Virus record (IMG/VR): IMGVR_UViG_3300005563_001145 | Source of the DNA: a virus | Length of the DNA: 13,711 nucleotides | Strand: one strand, 5' to 3' | Shown: one piece after another, positions 3,785 to 13,711 of the stretch | Layout: every line of letters starts with the position of its first letter | Numbering within the stretch: the stretch's first letter is position 1 | Notes under the pieces: generated by a model | Told to the model about the DNA's origin: nothing | The model's input: only the letters and a program-made list of their open reading frames with translations | The model's database searches: none | Made by a program: the position numbers and the translations under genes

Positions 3785-6580
3785 ATGGCCGACGAACGCA
3801 AACGTGAACTGCCCCTCCCGCCCGGCACGCACGCCTACATCCTCGACTCCACCAAGGGCGTGGTGAAGCTCTTCGTGGGTCCGACCGTCATCAACCAGAC
3901 AGGTCAGGATCGTCCGGTCAAGTTCAACACCAAGACCTTCACCTTCGACGAGTGCGCTTCGCTCGAGGCCGCGCTCTCGCAGAATGTGGTGGTGCCGGAA
4001 GGCTTCTACGCCGTTCTCACCAATCCGGCCAAGGACAAGTCATCGGGCAAGCTGATTTACCCCGGTGAAGGCCAGACCCAGTCGACTCCCGATCTGGCGA
4101 TCGGCCTCAAGGAGAACATCCCAGGGCCCGTCAGCTTCGCCCTCTTCCCCGGCCAGATGTGCGAGGTTCGCCGCGGTCACCATCTCCGCTCGAACGAATA
4201 CCTCCGCATCAAGATCTACAACGAAGGTCGCGCCATCGAGAACTGGTCGAAGGCCGTCATCAAGACCGCCGAGACCGCAACCGCTCAGACCGGTGCCGAT
4301 GGCAAGCCAACGACCACCGAGACCCCCAAGGCCGAGCCCAAGAAGGACACCACTCCGTCGATCACCGACGCCGTGCCGGCCGATCTGGCCGTGGGCAAGC
4401 AGTACAACATCCTCGGCACCAAGGTCGCCTTCTACATCCCGCCGACCGGCGTTTCGGTCGTGCCGGAAGGGCTGGGCCCCGACGGCAAAGACATCTTCGT
4501 TCGCCAGGCCGAGACGCTCGGTCTCAACGAGTACTCGATCCTGGTCGATGAAGACGGCAACAAGGAGTATCCTCGTGGTCCGGCGGTGGTGTTCCCGCGC
4601 CCGACGCAGGAGTTCCTCATCGCGCGCAAGCCGGACGGCACCCCCATCCTGGATGACGACGGCCTCCCCGCTCGCAAGTACAAGGCGATCGAGATCAACT
4701 CGCTCCAGGGCATCCAGCTCAAGTTCGCCAAAGATGGCGAGCTTCACTACGCCGACGGCAGCAAGGAGGCGTACAAGGCTGGTGACGAGAAGTTCATCAA
4801 GGGCGACAAGATGCCGATCTACTACCCGGAGGAGGGCCACCAGCTCGTCCGGTACGACGGCAAGTCGATCCACTACGCCGTGGCGGTCACCGAGGGCGAG
4901 GCCAAGTATGTGCTCGAGCGCGCCACCGGCTACGTCAAGCTGGAGAAGGGCCCGCAGATGCTGCTGCCCGACCCGGTGAAGGAGACGATCGTCCTTCGGC
5001 CTCTCTCGGACCGTGAAGCTCGGACCTGGTTCCCGGGCGCCGATGGCTCGGGCCGCGAGGCTGCCGAGCTGAACGCCAAGCTGCGTACGGAGGCTGGTAA
5101 TGCTCCCACCACGCGGCAGGGTGTCGTCTCTCAGGGGCAGCTCGAGCGCGGGATCGGCCCGGAGACGATGGCCCTCCTGAACTACGCCAACTCCAGCCCC
5201 GAGGCCTTCGTCGGAGCCGCCGCCGAACGAGGCGGCATGAAGTCGGCTCGGGCCCGCAGCAGCTCGATGGCGGAGAGCCGCCAGGGCAAGGACCAGCAGG
5301 CAGTTGTGGCCGACGTCGCCGAGCGCAAGTCGACCTACCACGAGCCCCGCACCATCATCCTCGGGGCGCAGAAGCGTGGCGTTCCGACGATCAAGGTTCA
5401 GCCGGGCTACGCGGTCAACGTCATCAAGGCCGACGGCCGTCGCGAGGCCGTGGTCGGGCCGAAGACGATCCTCATGGAGTTCAGCGACACGCTGGACATC
5501 CTGCGGCTCTCGACGGGCAAGCCGAAGAACACCGACAAGCTCTACGAGACCGTCTATCTCAACACGCACAACAACAAGGTCACGGACATCATCGATGACC
5601 TGGAGACCAAGGACCACGTCAAGGTGACGGCGAAGCTCTCGTACAACGTCAACTTCGAGGGCGACGCGTCGAAGTGGTTCACGATCGAGAACTACGTCAA
5701 GCACTTCTGCGACCACATCCGCTCGATCCTCAAGGGCGAGGTGCGGAAGCTGACGGTCGAGGAGTTCTACGGCAACTCGACCGCCTTCATCCGCGATCGC
5801 ATCCTCGGTGTCAAGCCGGCGCCGGCGAAGGAGGGTGACACGACACATCGCCCCGGTCTCTTCTTCGCGGAGAACGGCATGCGGGTCACGGATGTGGAGG
5901 TTCTCCTGGTTCAGATCGCCAATCCGGCGATCGCCGGGCTCCTCGCCAACTCGCAGCACAGCATCGTCCAGCACAACATCACCCTCAGCCTGAAGGAGAA
6001 GGAGCTCGAGGTCACCAAGCGTAGTCAGGAGATCGACCGCCTGGCTGCGGAGGCGGTGGCAGCGACCGAGGCTCGCAAGCTGGAGCTCGAGCAAGTCAAG
6101 GTGGGCAATCTCCTCTCCCTCGAGCTCAAGAAGCTCGACGCCGAGAAGGAGAAGAACGAGGAGAAGCAAGAGCTTCAGGCCATCCTCAATGCTCTCGAGG
6201 ACTTGAAGCACTCCTCCGAGCTCGCCCGCACCATGAAGAGCAACGATGCGGTCGGGGCGCAGGAGAAGGCGGCCTACGAGCGCCAGGCCTACTACCTGGG
6301 CGTTCAGGTCGACTCGATCGTCAAGCAGCTCGGCGCCATCCAGCCGGGTCTCATCGAAGCTCTCAGCTCCACCGGCGCTCGGGAGACGCTCATCCAGGTC
6401 GCCCGCTCGATGTCCTTCCACCAGATGTTCGGTGCGGAAAACGGCGTCGAGTTCATCCAGAAGGTCTTCGCCAACACCCCGCTCAAGGGCATCATCGAGG
6501 GCGTGGTCGGCAAGGCTGCCGATCTGGTCTCTCCGAACGGCACGGTCCAGAACAAGTCCCTGCCTCCGACGCAAGCGTAA
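3785..6580 (+). CDS. Major Vault Protein (MVP) homolog, full length: N-terminal vault repeats, shoulder domain, cap-helix coiled coil, C-terminal cap-ring region
   Basis: The translation follows human MVP block by block. [21 protein letters not shown] matches [34 protein letters not shown] matches HYCTVANPVSRD. Repeated ~55-aa units fit vault repeats. The shoulder [33 protein letters not shown]...[15 protein letters not shown] matches [33 protein letters not shown]...[30 protein letters not shown] matches [41 protein letters not shown] matches [23 protein letters not shown]. A long Glu/Lys/Ala-rich coiled coil (aa ~690-830) matches the cap-helix. The C-terminus [44 protein letters not shown] matches [45 protein letters not shown]. 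There is an AAGGAG SD 10 nt upstream. The gene is 3 nt after the 2H gene stop and is followed by a terminator. Confidence 0.85.
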   Translation: [931 protein letters not shown]

Positions 6581-6587
6581 TACGGAA

Positions 6588-6619
6588 GGCCGGTGCCCTC
6601 ACGGGTGCCGGCTTTTCTT
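6588..6619 (+). terminator. Rho-independent terminator: stem gccggtgccc / gggtgccggc (10 bp, two G-U pairs), loop tcac, then TTTTCTT
   Basis: The hairpin and T-tract are directly readable, 8 nt after the MVP-like stop codon. The next gene starts about 60 nt further on. Confidence 0.6.
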
Positions 6620-6620
6620 A

Positions 6621-6650
6621 GCTAAAAAAGAGAAGTTCTCGGTATAAGTC
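6621..6650 (+). promoter_or_regulatory. Locally AT-rich stretch with a -10-like TATAAG (6643-6648) upstream of the SPOUT gene; possible promoter for the downstream operon
   Basis: AT-rich sequence (gctaaaaaagagaagttctcggtataagtc) sits in an otherwise 60% GC genome, between the terminator and the AGGAG RBS of the next gene. The -35 match is poor. Confidence 0.2.
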
Positions 6651-13121: not shown

Positions 13122-13144
13122 GACTTACTACCAAGGGGTAGCCA

Positions 13145-13417
13145 ATGGTCGAAGTCAGCATCAACAAGTACGCTCGGCACTACAAGACGAACGAGAAGTA
13201 CATCATGGCGACGGTGACGCCAGAGGAAGCCCTCGCCATCATCATCTCGCTCTCCAACCAACTGCTGAAGAGCAGCCCCAACGCGAGTCGTGCAGAGCAG
13301 ACCTGCATAATCGATGGGGACATCAAAGCAGGTGGGTTCTTCTCCATCAGCGTCATGTCGATGGAAGAGCGGGCTGCCGTAAAGAAGATGCTGGAGGAGC
13401 ACGACACCAAGGGGTGA
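13145..13417 (+). CDS. Hypothetical small protein (90 aa)
   Basis: The ORF has a CCAAGGGG RBS 7 nt upstream and is tightly packed between neighbours; no motif recognised. Confidence 0.45.
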   Translation: MVEVSINKYARHYKTNEKYIMATVTPEEALAIIISLSNQLLKSSPNASRAEQTCIIDGDIKAGGFFSISVMSMEERAAVKKMLEEHDTKG

Positions 13418-13429
13418 TCTATGAAAATC

Positions 13430-13711
13430 GGTTCACAAGCCTTCGGCACCTTCTCATTCCCGACGGACTACGACGTCGAGAAAACGGCAACACTCAACAA
13501 GACGGACCTGACTGGCGGGAACAACAAGTACTACCAGATCGAGGCGCACGTCTCGAAGGACAAGAAGAAGTACAGGCTCTACTCCCGCTACGGACGCGTC
13601 GGGCACACCGGCACCGAAGAAGAGCGCATCCCGCCTCAGGACCTGAACTCGCTGCTGGCTGCCTTCGAAAGCCTCAAGGCTGAGAAGACCGGCTCGAGGA
13701 AGGGCTACGTC
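13430..13711 (+). CDS. WGR-domain protein, 5' portion (cut by window end; no stop in window)
   Basis: Frame +2 ATG at 13430 has a CCAAGGGG RBS 7 nt upstream. The translation MKIGSQAFGTFSFPTDYDVEKTATLNKTDLTGGNNKYYQIEAHVSKDKKKYRLYSRYGRVGHTGTEEERIPPQDLNSLLAAFESLKAEKTGSRKGYV matches the WGR consensus (NKfYqlq...y.l...WGRiG..G......f.s.eeA...F..lf.eKt.kGY). The ORF is absent from the supplied track because it has no stop. Confidence 0.65.

What the first reader, a model, noticed from the sequence alone, without database searches (positions are those of the whole stretch)
3785..13711. Cluster of eukaryote-like proteins (MVP, Hsp90, RanBP2 zinc fingers, WGR) in one SD-driven operon region
Within 10 kb, four proteins with mainly eukaryotic flavour occur together: the MVP homolog, an Hsp90/HtpG-family ATPase, a membrane protein with two canonical RanBP2-type zinc fingers (W-x-C-x2-C-x3-N-x6-C-x2-C), and a WGR domain protein (WGR is otherwise known from PARP1-3). 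All carry bacterial-style RBSs and overlapping or abutting start and stop codons, so this is not a eukaryotic virus. The co-occurrence suggests a functional system, such as a vault-like compartment with a dedicated chaperone and a nucleic-acid-binding accessory. It could also mark acquisition from a eukaryote or from a eukaryote-associated bacterium. An MVP next to a WGR (PARP-associated) domain loosely echoes the vault particle, which carries a PARP.
Basis: partly seen in the sequence, partly recalled or inferred. Interest (0 to 1): 0.75.

Follow-up and report, generated by a model that had tools for sequence, protein, structure and literature searches.

The report
Jumbo-phage vault-protein homolog near a PARP
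This is the accessory-gene region of a roughly 210-kb bacteriophage that encodes a full-length homolog of the vault shell protein (probably a scaffold for RNA repair) and, 7 kb away, a complete PARP enzyme; the supposed Hsp90 is the ordinary phage protein rIIA, and nothing here came recently from a eukaryote.

Summary
Partly right. The window matches a 210-kb IMG/VR jumbo-phage contig. The 931-aa ORF is a full-length major vault protein (MVP) homolog with repeats, shoulder and cap helix. The truncated WGR ORF continues, in a ~98% identical contig, into a 474-aa WGR–HD–ART PARP with an intact H-Y-E triad.

The "Hsp90" is rIIA, followed by rIIB. The "RanBP2" protein is a clade-restricted membrane protein with generic zinc ribbons. 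A strong conserved terminator follows MVP, so this is not one operon.

Nearest relatives of MVP and PARP are phage and Myxococcota proteins, not eukaryotic ones.

MVP is translationally coupled to a 2H cyclic phosphodiesterase. A LigD-type ligase, a SpoU methylase and a phosphoesterase lie nearby. In Myxococcota, MVP directly follows rtcB under rtcR. The best reading is an RNA-repair-associated scaffold, which is a known idea.

PARP lies within 10 kb of MVP in four phage lineages, and one phage fuses WGR to MVP. But the lineage-level rate (4/47) does not exceed a ThyX-centred control (3/58). PARP's own conserved neighbours are rIIA-rIIB and a wHTH protein. A true MVP–PARP partnership is therefore possible but unproven.

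The parts
510..1877 (+). Adenylosuccinate synthetase (PurA). An auxiliary nucleotide-metabolism gene that lies outside the finding's coordinates but in the same accessory region.
   Evidence: Pfam Adenylsucc_synt, E 3.3e-62.
1874..3307 (-). LigD-type 3'-phosphoesterase domain fused to an ATP-dependent ligase, an enzyme that heals and seals nucleic-acid ends. It is transcribed divergently from the MVP unit.
   Evidence: Pfam LigD_N 43.8 bits (cut-off 31.1), plus weaker ligase and OB-domain hits. NCBIfam LigD_PE_dom and NHEJ ligase hits are below cut-off. PHROG 114 ATP-dependent DNA ligase, E 1.7e-17.
3344..3781 (+). 145-aa putative 2H-superfamily cyclic phosphodiesterase (RNA end-healing). Its stop codon lies 3 nt before the MVP start codon.
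   Evidence: Two invariant H-x-T motifs (HMTI, HITL) across homologs. The same domain is fused to a P-loop kinase (L139, L165) or to a HAD-like domain (L102) in other phages. Weak Pfam tRNA_lig_CPD hit, E 0.0057, below cut-off. PHROG 36523. The single-sequence AF2 model was unusable (pLDDT 42.6).
3785..6580 (+). 931-aa full-length major vault protein homolog. Beta-repeat region at aa 1-404, low-confidence helical insert at 409-480, last repeat at 510-590, SPFH-like shoulder at 596-711, cap helix at 714-852, C-terminal helices.
   Evidence: Pfam MVP_shoulder E 1.4e-23. AF2 model pLDDT 78.3. Foldseek to human, rat and rabbit vault E 5.6e-33 to 1e-25, and to R1-R7 E 1e-14. At least 2403 homologs. 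The loop S576-x-G-K-P-K581 aligns with the human NAD+/ADP-ribose 'keyhole loop' S-A-G-R504-P-K506 (residues from PMC12280208).
6584..6620 (+). Intrinsic-terminator-like hairpin (GGCCGGTGCCC / TCAC / GGGTGCCGGC) followed by TTTTCTT, directly after the MVP stop codon. A conserved GGTATAAG element and an RBS follow.
   Evidence: MFE -38.4 kcal/mol for 108 nt, z = -4.07, 0 of 200 shuffles fold as well. Conserved with compensatory changes in L008. The simple pattern scan missed it.
6681..7220 (+). SpoU/TrmH-family RNA 2'-O-methyltransferase.
   Evidence: Pfam SpoU_methylase 62.1 bits, E 8.2e-17. A SpoU gene also lies between MVP and PARP in L022, and downstream of the WGR-MVP fusion in L010.
7213..7815 (+). 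Metallophosphoesterase (PHROG 547).
   Evidence: PHROG 547, E 5.8e-54. Present in 13/80 MVP loci and 15/80 PARP loci.
7817..8773 (+). Flavin-dependent thymidylate synthase ThyX.
   Evidence: Pfam Thy1, E 2.6e-36.
8794..9879 (+). 361-aa single-pass membrane protein. It has two N-terminal zinc ribbons (nt 8839-8898 and 8998-9057), a TM helix (nt 9187-9252) and a Cys/His-rich C-terminal domain.
   Evidence: Pfam Zn_ribbon_RanBP 24.1 bits, below the cut-off of 27. Motif and TM coordinates. Only 10 homologs among 5.8 billion proteins. Conserved Cys pattern.
9888..11969 (+). rIIA-like protein with an N-terminal GHKL ATPase fold. It is not Hsp90.
   Evidence: PHROG 612, E 3.7e-96, over aa 1-348. tblastn hits annotated rIIA in 2914 phage records. 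NCBIfam HSP90 only 33 bits against a cut-off of 455. No PDB sequence hit.
11982..13121 (+). rIIB-like protein with an acidic low-complexity C-terminal region.
   Evidence: PHROG 609, E 2.1e-60. Pfam Phage_T4_rIIB on the identical protein.
13145..13417 (+). 90-aa protein of unknown function.
   Evidence: No Pfam or PHROG hit. Among the fetched loci, found only in this phage's own contigs.
13421..13711 (+). First 97 codons (the WGR domain) of a 474-aa WGR-HD-ART PARP. The ORF is cut by the window end.
   Evidence: Pfam WGR, E 7.3e-15. The complete ORF in L001 has WGR + PARP_reg + PARP (E 2.4e-33). Best PDB hits are the human PARP1 WGR-CAT region, E 1.8e-34, with His (LFHGS), Tyr (GLYFAD) and Glu (NEFIVY) aligned to the PARP1 triad.

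Best explanation
The window is a slice of the non-structural accessory region of an uncultured ~210-kb jumbo phage. It holds several separate modules, not one 'eukaryote-like' system.

1. **Nucleotide supply.** PurA and ThyX.

2. **An RNA/nucleic-acid end-repair set built around the MVP homolog.** This comprises a LigD-type 3'-phosphoesterase-ligase, a 2H cyclic phosphodiesterase translationally coupled to MVP, a SpoU 2'-O-methyltransferase and a metallophosphoesterase.
   - Inferred mechanism: host defence RNases cut tRNA or rRNA, leaving 2',3'-cyclic-phosphate and 5'-OH ends.
   - The phage then opens and trims those ends, reseals them, and possibly methylates the junction.
   - The MVP homolog, an SPFH-type oligomer-forming protein, acts as the scaffold or cage for this process. 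This is the role already proposed for bacterial MVP homologs encoded in rtcB operons.

3. **A membrane-associated module.** A Zn-ribbon membrane protein followed by rIIA and rIIB.

4. **A break-sensing PARP.** A WGR-HD-ART enzyme with an H-Y-E triad, with its own conserved downstream wHTH-like partner. It presumably ADP-ribosylates host or phage targets using NAD+.

What is shown: domain identities, the fold, gene order, the terminator, and the neighbourhood statistics. What is inferred: cage formation, the RNA-repair role and PARP activity. MVP and PARP are neighbours mainly because both live in the same conflict/repair gene region of these phages. A direct partnership is not demonstrated.
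For: - **Phage identity.** The 100%-identical MVP and PARP lie on IMGVR_UViG_3300005535_000017, 210,330 bp. rIIA, rIIB, ThyX and PHROG hits agree.
- **MVP fold.**
- **The 2H phosphodiesterase-MVP pair.** The genes are coupled by a 3-nt gap, and the gene order is kept in L008, where the two ORFs overlap. Both H-x-T motifs are invariant, and kinase-2H and HAD-2H fusions occur elsewhere.
- **Terminator after MVP.**
- **Bacterial context.** rtcR sits divergently, and rtcB directly abuts MVP on the same strand, in at least 9 Myxococcota loci. RtcR is present in 17/80 loci and RtcB in 12/80. This agrees with Burroughs & Aravind 2016 as cited in PMC13404743.
- **Phage context.** RNA-repair-type genes (RNA ligase, HD-kinase, RlaP, DUF2828) lie within 10 kb of MVP in 9/47 lineages, against 1/58 ThyX-control lineages (Fisher p = 0.005).
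- **PARP's own partners.** rIIA-rIIB upstream (L093-L095, L254) and a 254-aa wHTH-like protein downstream in 10/80 PARP loci.
- **PARP in a repair context without MVP.** In L253, PARP lies among RlaP, two RtcB genes and ligases, and MVP is 57 kb away.
Against: - No RNA ligase of the RtcB or Rnl type, no RlaP nucleotidyltransferase and no candidate partner RNA were found in the window. Rfam gave nothing at E<=1 and there are no tRNAs.
- The ligase is LigD/DNA-ligase-like and sits on the opposite strand.
- The 2H assignment rests on motifs, fusions and a sub-threshold Pfam hit.
- Most phage MVP loci (38/47 lineages) show none of my RNA-repair markers within 10 kb.
- The marker HMMs were built from MVP-locus sequences, and the ThyX control loci come from smaller genomes. 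The enrichment may therefore be inflated.
- The recurrent PARP, Macro, NADAR and ARH genes near MVP, the WGR-MVP fusion, and the NAD+/ADP-ribose pocket of human MVP (PMC12280208) all point to an ADP-ribose-centred role that this explanation treats as secondary.
Confidence: 0.55

Rival explanations
1. **Phage 'proto-vault'.** The MVP homolog forms a cage whose shoulder pocket binds NAD+ or ADP-ribose. It works directly with the WGR-PARP, and with Macro, NADAR or ARH erasers in other phages, as one NAD+/ADP-ribose conflict system. This would be the prokaryotic-virus counterpart of MVP + PARP4 in eukaryotic vaults.
For: - PARP lies within 10 kb of MVP, on the same strand, in four lineages: the window clade, L019 (1.4 kb apart), L022 and L007/L077. 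All of these PARPs are WGR-HD-ART with H-Y-E.
- At least 7 of 80 MVP contigs also carry a PARP somewhere on the contig. This compares with 16 of 50,697 phage records overall.
- One phage has a WGR-MVP fusion that passes the Pfam cut-off (27.7 against 22). It is seen in three independent assemblies.
- Stand-alone WGR proteins lie upstream of MVP in two Myxococcota loci.
- ADP-ribose-processing genes lie near MVP: Macro in 14/80 loci, NADAR in 17/80, and ADP_ribosyl_GH, YpsA and DUF4326 in L255.
- The most conserved MVP motif, S-x-G-K-P-K, aligns with the human keyhole loop whose R504 and K506 lie at the NAD+ diphosphate site, K506 within salt-bridge range (PMC12280208).
- Human PARP4 also contains a WGR domain (PMC10711553 abstract).
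Against: - At lineage level, PARP near MVP (4/47) is no more frequent than near ThyX (3/58, p = 0.70).
- Any ADP-ribose gene occurs in 9/47 MVP lineages against 5/58 control lineages, which is not significant (p = 0.15).
- On a rough NJ tree, three of the four PARP-linked lineages fall in one deep MVP clade, so there may be only about two independent events.
- Close PARP relatives (66-69% identity) keep rIIA-rIIB-PARP without MVP, or have MVP 40-57 kb away.
- 0 of 80 bacterial MVP loci has PARP, Macro or NADAR.
- Pfam finds only WGR, PARP_reg and PARP in the phage PARP. Nothing corresponds to the MINT region by which PARP4 binds MVP.
- Of the listed human pocket residues that fall within the sequence alignment, only two basic keyhole-loop residues are conserved.
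- A terminator separates MVP from the downstream array.
Confidence: 0.2
2. **Unrelated cargo.** The genes are independent accessory genes that sit together only because jumbo phages pool such genes in variable regions. On this view the MVP homolog has a role unrelated to both RNA repair and ADP-ribosylation, for example a membrane- or compartment-organising SPFH-like assembly.
For: - No neighbour is conserved across the 80 phage MVP loci. The best non-overlapping family occurs in 17 loci, mostly one clade.
- 38 of 47 MVP lineages lack every marker I tested.
- The downstream genes (ThyX, rIIA/B) have well-known unrelated roles.
- The Foldseek list after MVP is dominated by membrane SPFH cages: flotillin, HflK/C, prohibitin and stomatin.
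Against: - The tight 2H-phosphodiesterase-MVP coupling is conserved in L008.
- rtcB-MVP operons exist in bacteria.
- RNA-repair markers are significantly enriched near MVP (p = 0.005).
- The MVP homolog has no predicted TM segment or membrane anchor in the model.
Confidence: 0.2
3. **Eukaryote-derived gene cluster.** The cluster was acquired from a eukaryote or a eukaryote-associated bacterium.
For: The MVP, PARP (WGR/HD/ART) and RanBP-type finger families were first described in eukaryotes. The best solved-structure hits are human proteins.
Against: - MVP is about 17% identical to human MVP but 40-70% identical to hundreds of phage and Myxococcota proteins.
- PARP has more than 120 relatives at 59-86% identity on phage-sized contigs.
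- GC content and coding style are uniform across the window.
- The 'Hsp90' is rIIA.
Confidence: 0.03

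Closest known systems
Eukaryotic major vault protein / vault particle (MVP + PARP4 + TEP1 + vault RNA)
   Same: The domain order is the same: N-terminal beta repeats, an SPFH-like shoulder and a long cap helix. A basic G-[KR]-P-K loop sits at the position of the NAD+/ADP-ribose keyhole loop. 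A WGR-containing PARP is encoded nearby.
   Different: - Only about 17% identity to human MVP. Sequence similarity is detectable only from the last repeat to the cap helix.
- There is an extra low-confidence helical insert at aa 409-503.
- No vault RNA was detected.
- No TEP1 was found. No window protein scanned against Pfam matched a TROVE or TEP1-type domain.
- Pfam finds only WGR, PARP_reg and PARP in the phage PARP, so none of PARP4's other domains is present.
- Cage assembly is untested.
Bacterial MVP homologs in Rtc RNA-repair operons (Burroughs & Aravind 2016, as cited in PMC13404743; Sokolskyi 2019 preprint 10.1101/872010)
   Same: It belongs to the same protein family, at 40-46% identity over the full length. 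It is likewise associated with RNA end-healing and sealing genes.
   Different: Here the family is in a phage. The coupled enzyme is a 2H cyclic phosphodiesterase rather than RtcB. No RtcR is present and no partner ncRNA was found. A PARP is nearby, which none of the 80 bacterial loci shows.
Phage-encoded MVPs (Santos et al. 2023 preprint, 10.1101/2023.11.10.566534: two human-gut Caudoviricetes)
   Same: It is an MVP homolog in a tailed phage that groups with bacterial homologs.
   Different: That study's text does not mention PARP, WGR, jumbo phages or gene neighbourhoods. Here the family is found in 212 IMG/VR contigs, many of 100-480 kb, and in the 462-735-kb huge phages LR756500, LR756501 and LR756503.
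Jumbo-phage PARPs (e.g. Xanthomonas phage XacN1 BBA65562.1; Iyer et al. 2021, PMC7824862)
   Same: It is a PARP1-like ART in a jumbo phage. tblastn finds it in XacN1, Xoo-sp13, Stenotrophomonas CM1/RAS14, Cellulophaga phi4:1 and Klebsiella FBKp34.
   Different: This one has the complete WGR-HD-ART arrangement. It belongs to a large uncultured clade with more than 120 relatives at >=59% identity. In that clade it is flanked by rIIA-rIIB upstream and a wHTH-like protein downstream. That review's text does not mention vault or MVP.
T4 rIIA/rIIB
   Same: PHROG rIIA and rIIB matches, and the two genes are adjacent in the order A then B.
   Different: The sequences are very divergent. At most 35% identity over the N-terminal half to any deposited phage. 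The pair is preceded by a clade-specific Zn-ribbon membrane protein.

Membership tests
Major vault protein (MVP) | SPFH-like shoulder domain (Pfam PF11978) | tested here: met
   83.6 bits against a cut-off of 25, aa 596-711.
Major vault protein (MVP) | N-terminal array of antiparallel beta-sheet repeat domains (R1-R9) | tested here: met
   The AF2 model is beta-rich over aa 1-404 and 510-590 with pLDDT about 90. Foldseek to murine R1-R7 (3gf5/3gng) gives E ~1e-14 and TM (target) 0.58-0.61. Pfam Vault_3 alone is sub-threshold at 21.4 against 28.8.
Major vault protein (MVP) | Long cap-helix coiled coil after the shoulder | tested here: met
   The model has a single helix over aa 714-852. Full-length alignment to 9bw6, 9z4w and 4v60.
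Major vault protein (MVP) | Assembly into a closed multi-subunit cage (39-mer half vaults) | not testable with these tools
   Only a monomer could be modelled. Expression and EM are needed.
Vault particle (as a system) | PARP partner that docks on MVP through a MINT domain | tested here: not met
   The phage PARP is 474 aa with only WGR, PARP_reg and PARP domains. Nothing lies C-terminal to the ART domain.
Vault particle (as a system) | Associated small RNA (vault RNA), or a tRNA-like or Y-like RNA | tested here: not met
   No Rfam match at E<=1 and no tRNA or tmRNA in the window. An undescribed RNA cannot be excluded.
PARP1-3-type poly(ADP-ribose) polymerase | WGR + helical regulatory (HD) + ART catalytic domains | tested here: met
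   WGR is present in the window. All three domains are present in the ~98% identical L001 ORF: 54, 43 and 116 bits, each above its cut-off.
PARP1-3-type poly(ADP-ribose) polymerase | H-Y-E catalytic triad | tested here: met
   LFHGS, GLYFAD and NEFIVY align with PARP1 H862, Y896 and E988. The triad is also present in the four other MVP-linked phage PARPs.
PARP1-3-type poly(ADP-ribose) polymerase | Break-stimulated poly(ADP-ribosyl)ation activity | not testable with these tools
   Requires an enzyme assay.
Hsp90/HtpG | GHKL N-domain plus the Hsp90 middle and C-terminal dimerisation domains | tested here: not met
   NCBIfam HSP90 scores 33.2 bits against a cut-off of 455 and covers only aa 31-141. 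Pfam lists only HATPase_c at E 0.035, even with the limit set to E<=10. No PDB sequence hit.
rIIA/rIIB | Profile match to rIIA, with an rIIB gene immediately downstream | tested here: met
   PHROG 612 E 3.7e-96. PHROG 609 E 2.1e-60 for the next gene. Pfam Phage_T4_rIIB.
RanBP2-type zinc finger | W-x-C-x2-C-x3-N-x6-C-x2-C motif and a Pfam PF00641 match | tested here: inconclusive
   Finger 1 fits the motif. Finger 2 lacks the W. Pfam scores 24.1, below the cut-off of 27. The signature N is not conserved in homologs.
Prokaryotic RNA-repair systems with an SPFH/MVP scaffold (syntax of Burroughs & Aravind 2016, recalled from its abstract; the paper is not held) | RNA ligase (RtcB or ATP-grasp Rnl) | tested here: not met
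   The window has only a LigD-type phosphoesterase-ligase, on the opposite strand. The relative L008 has an RNA_ligase gene in the block. Bacterial loci have RtcB.
Prokaryotic RNA-repair systems with an SPFH/MVP scaffold | End-modifying enzymes (phosphoesterase or kinase) and a protective methylase | tested here: met
   A 2H phosphodiesterase, assigned by motifs and fusions. The PHROG 547 phosphoesterase. The SpoU methylase.
Prokaryotic RNA-repair systems with an SPFH/MVP scaffold | Associated nucleotidyltransferase (RlaP) and cognate ncRNA | tested here: not met
   No window ORF scanned matched Pfam RlaP (PF10127), and my RlaP HMM did not hit this phage's contig. RlaP is present in 13/80 other phage MVP loci. 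No ncRNA was found.

The most novel reading that the evidence does not exclude
Jumbo phages encode a vault-like cage whose conserved shoulder loop binds NAD+ or ADP-ribose. The cage works with a WGR-type break sensor, which is either a separate PARP (as here) or fused directly to MVP (P0037), and with ADP-ribose erasers. On this reading the MVP-PARP pairing of eukaryotic vaults descends from, or converges on, a prokaryotic-virus NAD+/RNA-damage conflict system. That would give the long-unexplained vault a genetically tractable ancestor.
Probability: 0.15. Interest if true: 0.85.

Novelty: new member of a known kind. Interest (0 to 1): 0.45.

Why it matters
Vault function is still unresolved roughly four decades after vaults were first described in 1986. 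Recent work shows that the human MVP shoulder binds NAD+/ADP-ribose and houses PARP4 and the NADase TEP1 (PMC12280208; bioRxiv 10.64898/2026.05.01.722283).

Several observations here place the family in RNA-damage and NAD+ conflict contexts in phages and bacteria. Full-length MVP homologs are common in jumbo and huge phages. In this phage MVP is coupled to an RNA end-healing enzyme. In some lineages it sits beside, or is fused to, PARP-type WGR modules and ADP-ribose hydrolases.

Even if MVP and PARP are not direct partners, these phage and myxobacterial genes offer simple systems in which to test what an MVP cage does.

For annotation, the practical lesson is more modest. The 'Hsp90' is rIIA, and the region is ordinary jumbo-phage accessory DNA, not a eukaryotic import.

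Tried and rejected
- **Megablast of the whole window against deposited phages.** No match.
- **Hsp90 reading.** Rejected.
- **Eukaryotic origin.** Rejected.
- **'One operon'.** Rejected because of the terminator. The simple terminator scan had missed it.
- **ncRNA partner.** Rfam at E<=1 and ARAGORN found nothing.
- **Single-sequence AF2 of the 145-aa protein.** pLDDT 42.6, unusable, so no fold search was run. phmmer against PDB gave nothing meaningful.
- **The 254-aa PARP-adjacent protein.** Not a recognisable PARG, macro or hydrolase. Only faint wHTH hints.
- **Universally conserved MVP neighbour in phages.** None found.
- **Specific MVP-PARP enrichment.** Not significant against a ThyX-centred control.
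- **A proximity argument.** Four of seven co-carrying contigs have the two genes within 7 kb of each other. I considered this but down-weighted it, because accessory genes cluster and three of the four lineages share one deep clade.
- **Burroughs & Aravind 2016.** The paper could not be read. Its content is cited only through PMC13404743 and from memory of its abstract.

Full report
**What is in the window**

All long ORFs from 3344 to the end lie on the + strand. They have SD-like motifs and gaps of -8 to +100 nt. The annotated genes are listed below.

| Coordinates | Strand | Gene or product |
|---|---|---|
| 510-1877 | + | PurA |
| 1874-3307 | - | LigD-type 3'-phosphoesterase fused to an ATP-dependent ligase |
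| 3344-3781 | + | 145-aa protein |
| 3785-6580 | + | 931-aa MVP homolog |
| 6681-7220 | + | SpoU methylase |
| 7213-7815 | + | PHROG-547 phosphoesterase |
| 7817-8773 | + | ThyX |
| 8794-9879 | + | 361-aa Zn-ribbon membrane protein |
| 9888-11969 | + | rIIA |
| 11982-13121 | + | rIIB |
| 13145-13417 | + | 90-aa ORF |
| 13421-13711 | + | WGR domain, cut by the window end |

The window length equals the 13,711-bp longest contig recorded for its Zn-ribbon protein, so the window is probably that JGI contig. Its MVP and PARP are 100% identical to those on IMGVR_UViG_3300005535_000017, a 210,330-bp viral contig. No deposited phage is similar at the DNA level.

**Checking the four 'eukaryote-like' proteins**

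*MVP: real and full length.*
- Pfam MVP_shoulder scores 83.6 bits.
- An AF2 model built on 75 homologs has pLDDT 78. It shows N-terminal beta repeats, a shoulder and a 140-residue cap helix.
- Foldseek aligns the model end to end with human, rabbit and rat vault chains (E 5.6e-33 to 1e-25) and with the murine R1-R7 crystal structure (E ~1e-14).

*WGR: real.*
- A ~98-99% identical contig (L001) extends the window.
- There the ORF is 474 aa with WGR + PARP_reg + PARP catalytic domains.
- Its best solved relatives are human PARP1 WGR-CAT constructs (E 1.8e-34), and the H-Y-E triad is aligned.

*'Hsp90': actually rIIA.*
- PHROG 612 gives E 3.7e-96, and rIIB follows immediately.
- Only about 110 N-terminal residues resemble the shared GHKL ATP-binding fold. 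NCBIfam HSP90 scores 33 bits against a cut-off of 455.

*'RanBP2' protein.*
- It has one motif-perfect finger and one finger without the Trp.
- The Pfam score is sub-threshold, and the signature Asn varies among homologs.
- Only 10 homologs exist in 5.8 billion proteins. All are metagenomic, and some sit on ~120-210-kb contigs that also carry homologs of this window's MVP or PARP.
- It is a single-pass membrane protein with a Cys/His-rich C-terminal domain.

**Operon structure**

- The 145-aa gene stops 3 nt before the MVP start codon.
- Directly after the MVP stop codon lies a GC-rich 11-15-bp hairpin plus TTTTCTT. MFE is -38.4 kcal/mol, z = -4.07, and no shuffle folds as well.
- This hairpin is conserved with compensatory substitutions in a phage whose MVP is 70% identical. 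A conserved GGTATAAG element and an RBS follow it.
- The 145-aa gene and MVP therefore form their own unit, separate from the SpoU…PARP array.

**Where the relatives are**

- MVP has at least 2403 homologs.
- 212 IMG/VR contigs carry a relative, many of 100-480 kb.
- The huge phages LR756500, LR756501 and LR756503 (462-735 kb, GC 24-32%) carry it at about 35% identity.
- 419 stretches match in species-representative bacterial genomes. Among the 80 kept, most are Myxococcota.
- Identity to human MVP is about 17%.
- PARP has more than 120 relatives at 59-86% identity, on contigs up to 243 kb.
- Nothing points to a recent eukaryotic source.

**What MVP keeps company with**

*In bacteria.*
- rtcR is divergent, and rtcB directly abuts MVP on the same strand, in at least 9 loci.
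- RtcR occurs in 17/80 loci and RtcB in 12/80. Pfam confirms both with E ~1e-68.
- This independently reproduces what PMC13404743 cites from Burroughs & Aravind 2016: MVP homologs share operons with RtcB and are implicated in RNA repair.

*In this window.*
- The 145-aa protein coupled to MVP has two invariant H-x-T motifs, the 2H phosphoesterase signature.
- In other phages the same domain is fused to a P-loop kinase or a HAD-like domain. The kinase-phosphodiesterase order is, from my own knowledge, the one found in fungal tRNA ligase Trl1.
- Together with the LigD-PE-ligase, the SpoU methylase and the phosphoesterase, this matches the healing/sealing/protecting 'syntax' of RNA-repair systems.
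- However, there is no RtcB or Rnl ligase, no RlaP and no detectable ncRNA.

*Across 80 phage MVP loci (±10 kb).*
- No neighbour is universal.
- Recurrent neighbours are RNA ligase (14 loci), HD-kinase (11), RlaP (13), DUF2828+DUF7788 (15), NADAR (17), Macro (14) and PARP (4).
- At lineage level (70% MVP identity), RNA-repair markers occur in 9/47 MVP lineages against 1/58 ThyX-centred control lineages (p = 0.005).
- ADP-ribose genes occur in 9/47 against 5/58 (p = 0.15).
- PARP occurs in 4/47 against 3/58 (p = 0.70).

**MVP and PARP specifically**

*For a link.*
- PARP lies within 10 kb of MVP, on the same strand, in four lineages:
  - the window clade, syntenic in L008/L009;
  - L019, 1.4 kb apart;
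  - L022, which also has a SpoU gene between the two;
  - LR756500 (L007/L077), which also has a Macro protein 1.2 kb downstream of MVP.
- All of these PARPs are WGR-HD-ART with H-Y-E.
- At least three more contigs carry both genes 40-235 kb apart.
- One phage fuses a WGR domain to the MVP N-terminus. It scores 27.7 against the Pfam cut-off of 22 and appears in three assemblies.
- Another MVP locus has ADP_ribosyl_GH, YpsA and DUF4326 nearby.
- The family's most conserved loop, S-x-G-K-P-K, aligns with the human keyhole loop that is part of the NAD+/ADP-ribose pocket (PMC12280208).

*Against a link.*
- The control shows no excess.
- On a rough NJ tree, three of the four lineages share one deep clade.
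- PARP's conserved neighbours are rIIA-rIIB upstream and a wHTH-like 254-aa protein downstream, the latter in 10/80 PARP loci.
- Phages with a 66-69% identical PARP lack MVP in the locus, or have it 40-57 kb away.
- No bacterial MVP locus has a PARP.
- Pfam finds no domain beyond WGR, PARP_reg and PARP in the phage PARP, so no MINT-like region.
- A terminator follows MVP.
- In L253 the PARP itself sits among RlaP, two RtcB genes and ligases. This suggests that MVP and PARP are both residents of RNA-damage/NAD+ conflict islands rather than obligate partners.

**Verdict**

Best explanation (confidence about 0.55): this is a jumbo-phage accessory region. The MVP homolog is an RNA-repair-associated scaffold coupled to a 2H phosphodiesterase. 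The PARP belongs to a neighbouring, separately organised module with rIIA and rIIB.

A direct MVP-PARP 'proto-vault' is the most interesting reading not excluded. I give it about 0.15-0.2.

Prior knowledge covers bacterial MVP-RtcB operons, two gut-phage MVPs (10.1101/2023.11.10.566534, which has no neighbourhood analysis) and jumbo-phage PARPs (PMC7824862, which does not mention vault or MVP). In the held literature I found no report of the recurrent phage MVP-PARP/ADP-ribose context or of the WGR-MVP fusion.

Noticed in passing
L010:10001-13288 (also L011, L012); protein P0037: A 1095-aa phage protein with an N-terminal WGR domain (Pfam 27.7 bits against a cut-off of 22) fused to a full-length MVP homolog. 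It appears in three independent assemblies. SpoU, RlaP, AAA_33 kinase and HAD genes lie 7-10 kb downstream.
   Followed up: partly
L199:7089-12472, and similarly L184, L190, L192, L194, L197, L202, L205, L206: In Myxococcota MAGs, rtcR is divergent and rtcB directly abuts the MVP homolog on the same strand. This is an RtcR-controlled rtcB-MVP operon and reproduces a published observation.
   Followed up: yes
L083:7445-9031 (15 of 80 phage MVP loci, including L054, L056-L058 and L076-L090): A ~510-aa DUF2828 + DUF7788 protein with a vWA-like DxSxS motif lies just upstream of MVP in one large phage clade. In the L054/L056-L058 subgroup, NADAR, metallophosphatase, HD-kinase and PHROG-547 genes follow MVP. 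Whether the protein is TROVE/Ro-like, which would echo TEP1, was not tested.
   Followed up: no
L255:9174-16596: In a 243.7-kb phage, MVP is flanked by DUF4326, a YpsA (SLOG) protein and an ADP-ribosylglycohydrolase. The PARP of the same phage lies 57 kb away among RlaP, two RtcB genes and ligases (L253).
   Followed up: partly
L001:16756-17520 (about 3 kb beyond the window end): A 254-aa protein with faint winged-helix hints follows PARP in 10 of 80 PARP loci, across PARPs down to about 29% identity. It is the most conserved PARP neighbour. Its function is unknown, and it is not a recognisable PARG or macro protein.
   Followed up: partly
L139:494-1450, L165:586-1578, L102:81-1160: Homologs of the window's 145-aa protein are fused to a P-loop (polynucleotide-kinase-like) domain or a HAD-like domain in PARP-carrying phages. 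This supports an RNA end-healing role.
   Followed up: partly
window 6621-6680: Downstream of the MVP terminator, a GGTATAAG element and the RBS are conserved between the window and L008. This may be a phage promoter for the SpoU…PARP array. The sigma-70 scan found nothing here.
   Followed up: no
window 1874-3307 (- strand): The gene caller used for L001 started the ligase 58 codons later (419 aa). However, the LigD_N phosphoesterase hit spans aa 31-108 of the 477-aa ORF, so the longer ORF is probably right. That leaves only 36 nt between the divergent ligase and the 145-aa gene.
   Followed up: partly
window 9274-9879 (C-terminal domain of the Zn-ribbon membrane protein): The post-TM domain carries 14 Cys with repeated C-x-P-H-x-C-N and T-C-Y-D motifs. 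These are invariant among homologs, and some homologs have extra copies. It may be an extracytoplasmic metal- or disulfide-rich domain. The gene always sits just upstream of rIIA in this clade.
   Followed up: no
L008:19237-22330 versus L009:19333-22430: In one of two near-identical contigs from the same sample, rIIB is called as 619 aa and PARP as 376 aa without WGR. The other contig has a 381-aa rIIB, a 171-aa ORF and an intact 478-aa WGR-PARP. This is probably a frameshift or assembly difference.
   Followed up: no
L180:5831-6823 and L176:7805-8869: Stand-alone WGR-domain proteins (67 and 63 bits), one also with DUF6891, lie 1-4 kb upstream of MVP in two Myxococcota MAGs. The background frequency of WGR genes in these genomes was not measured.
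   Followed up: no
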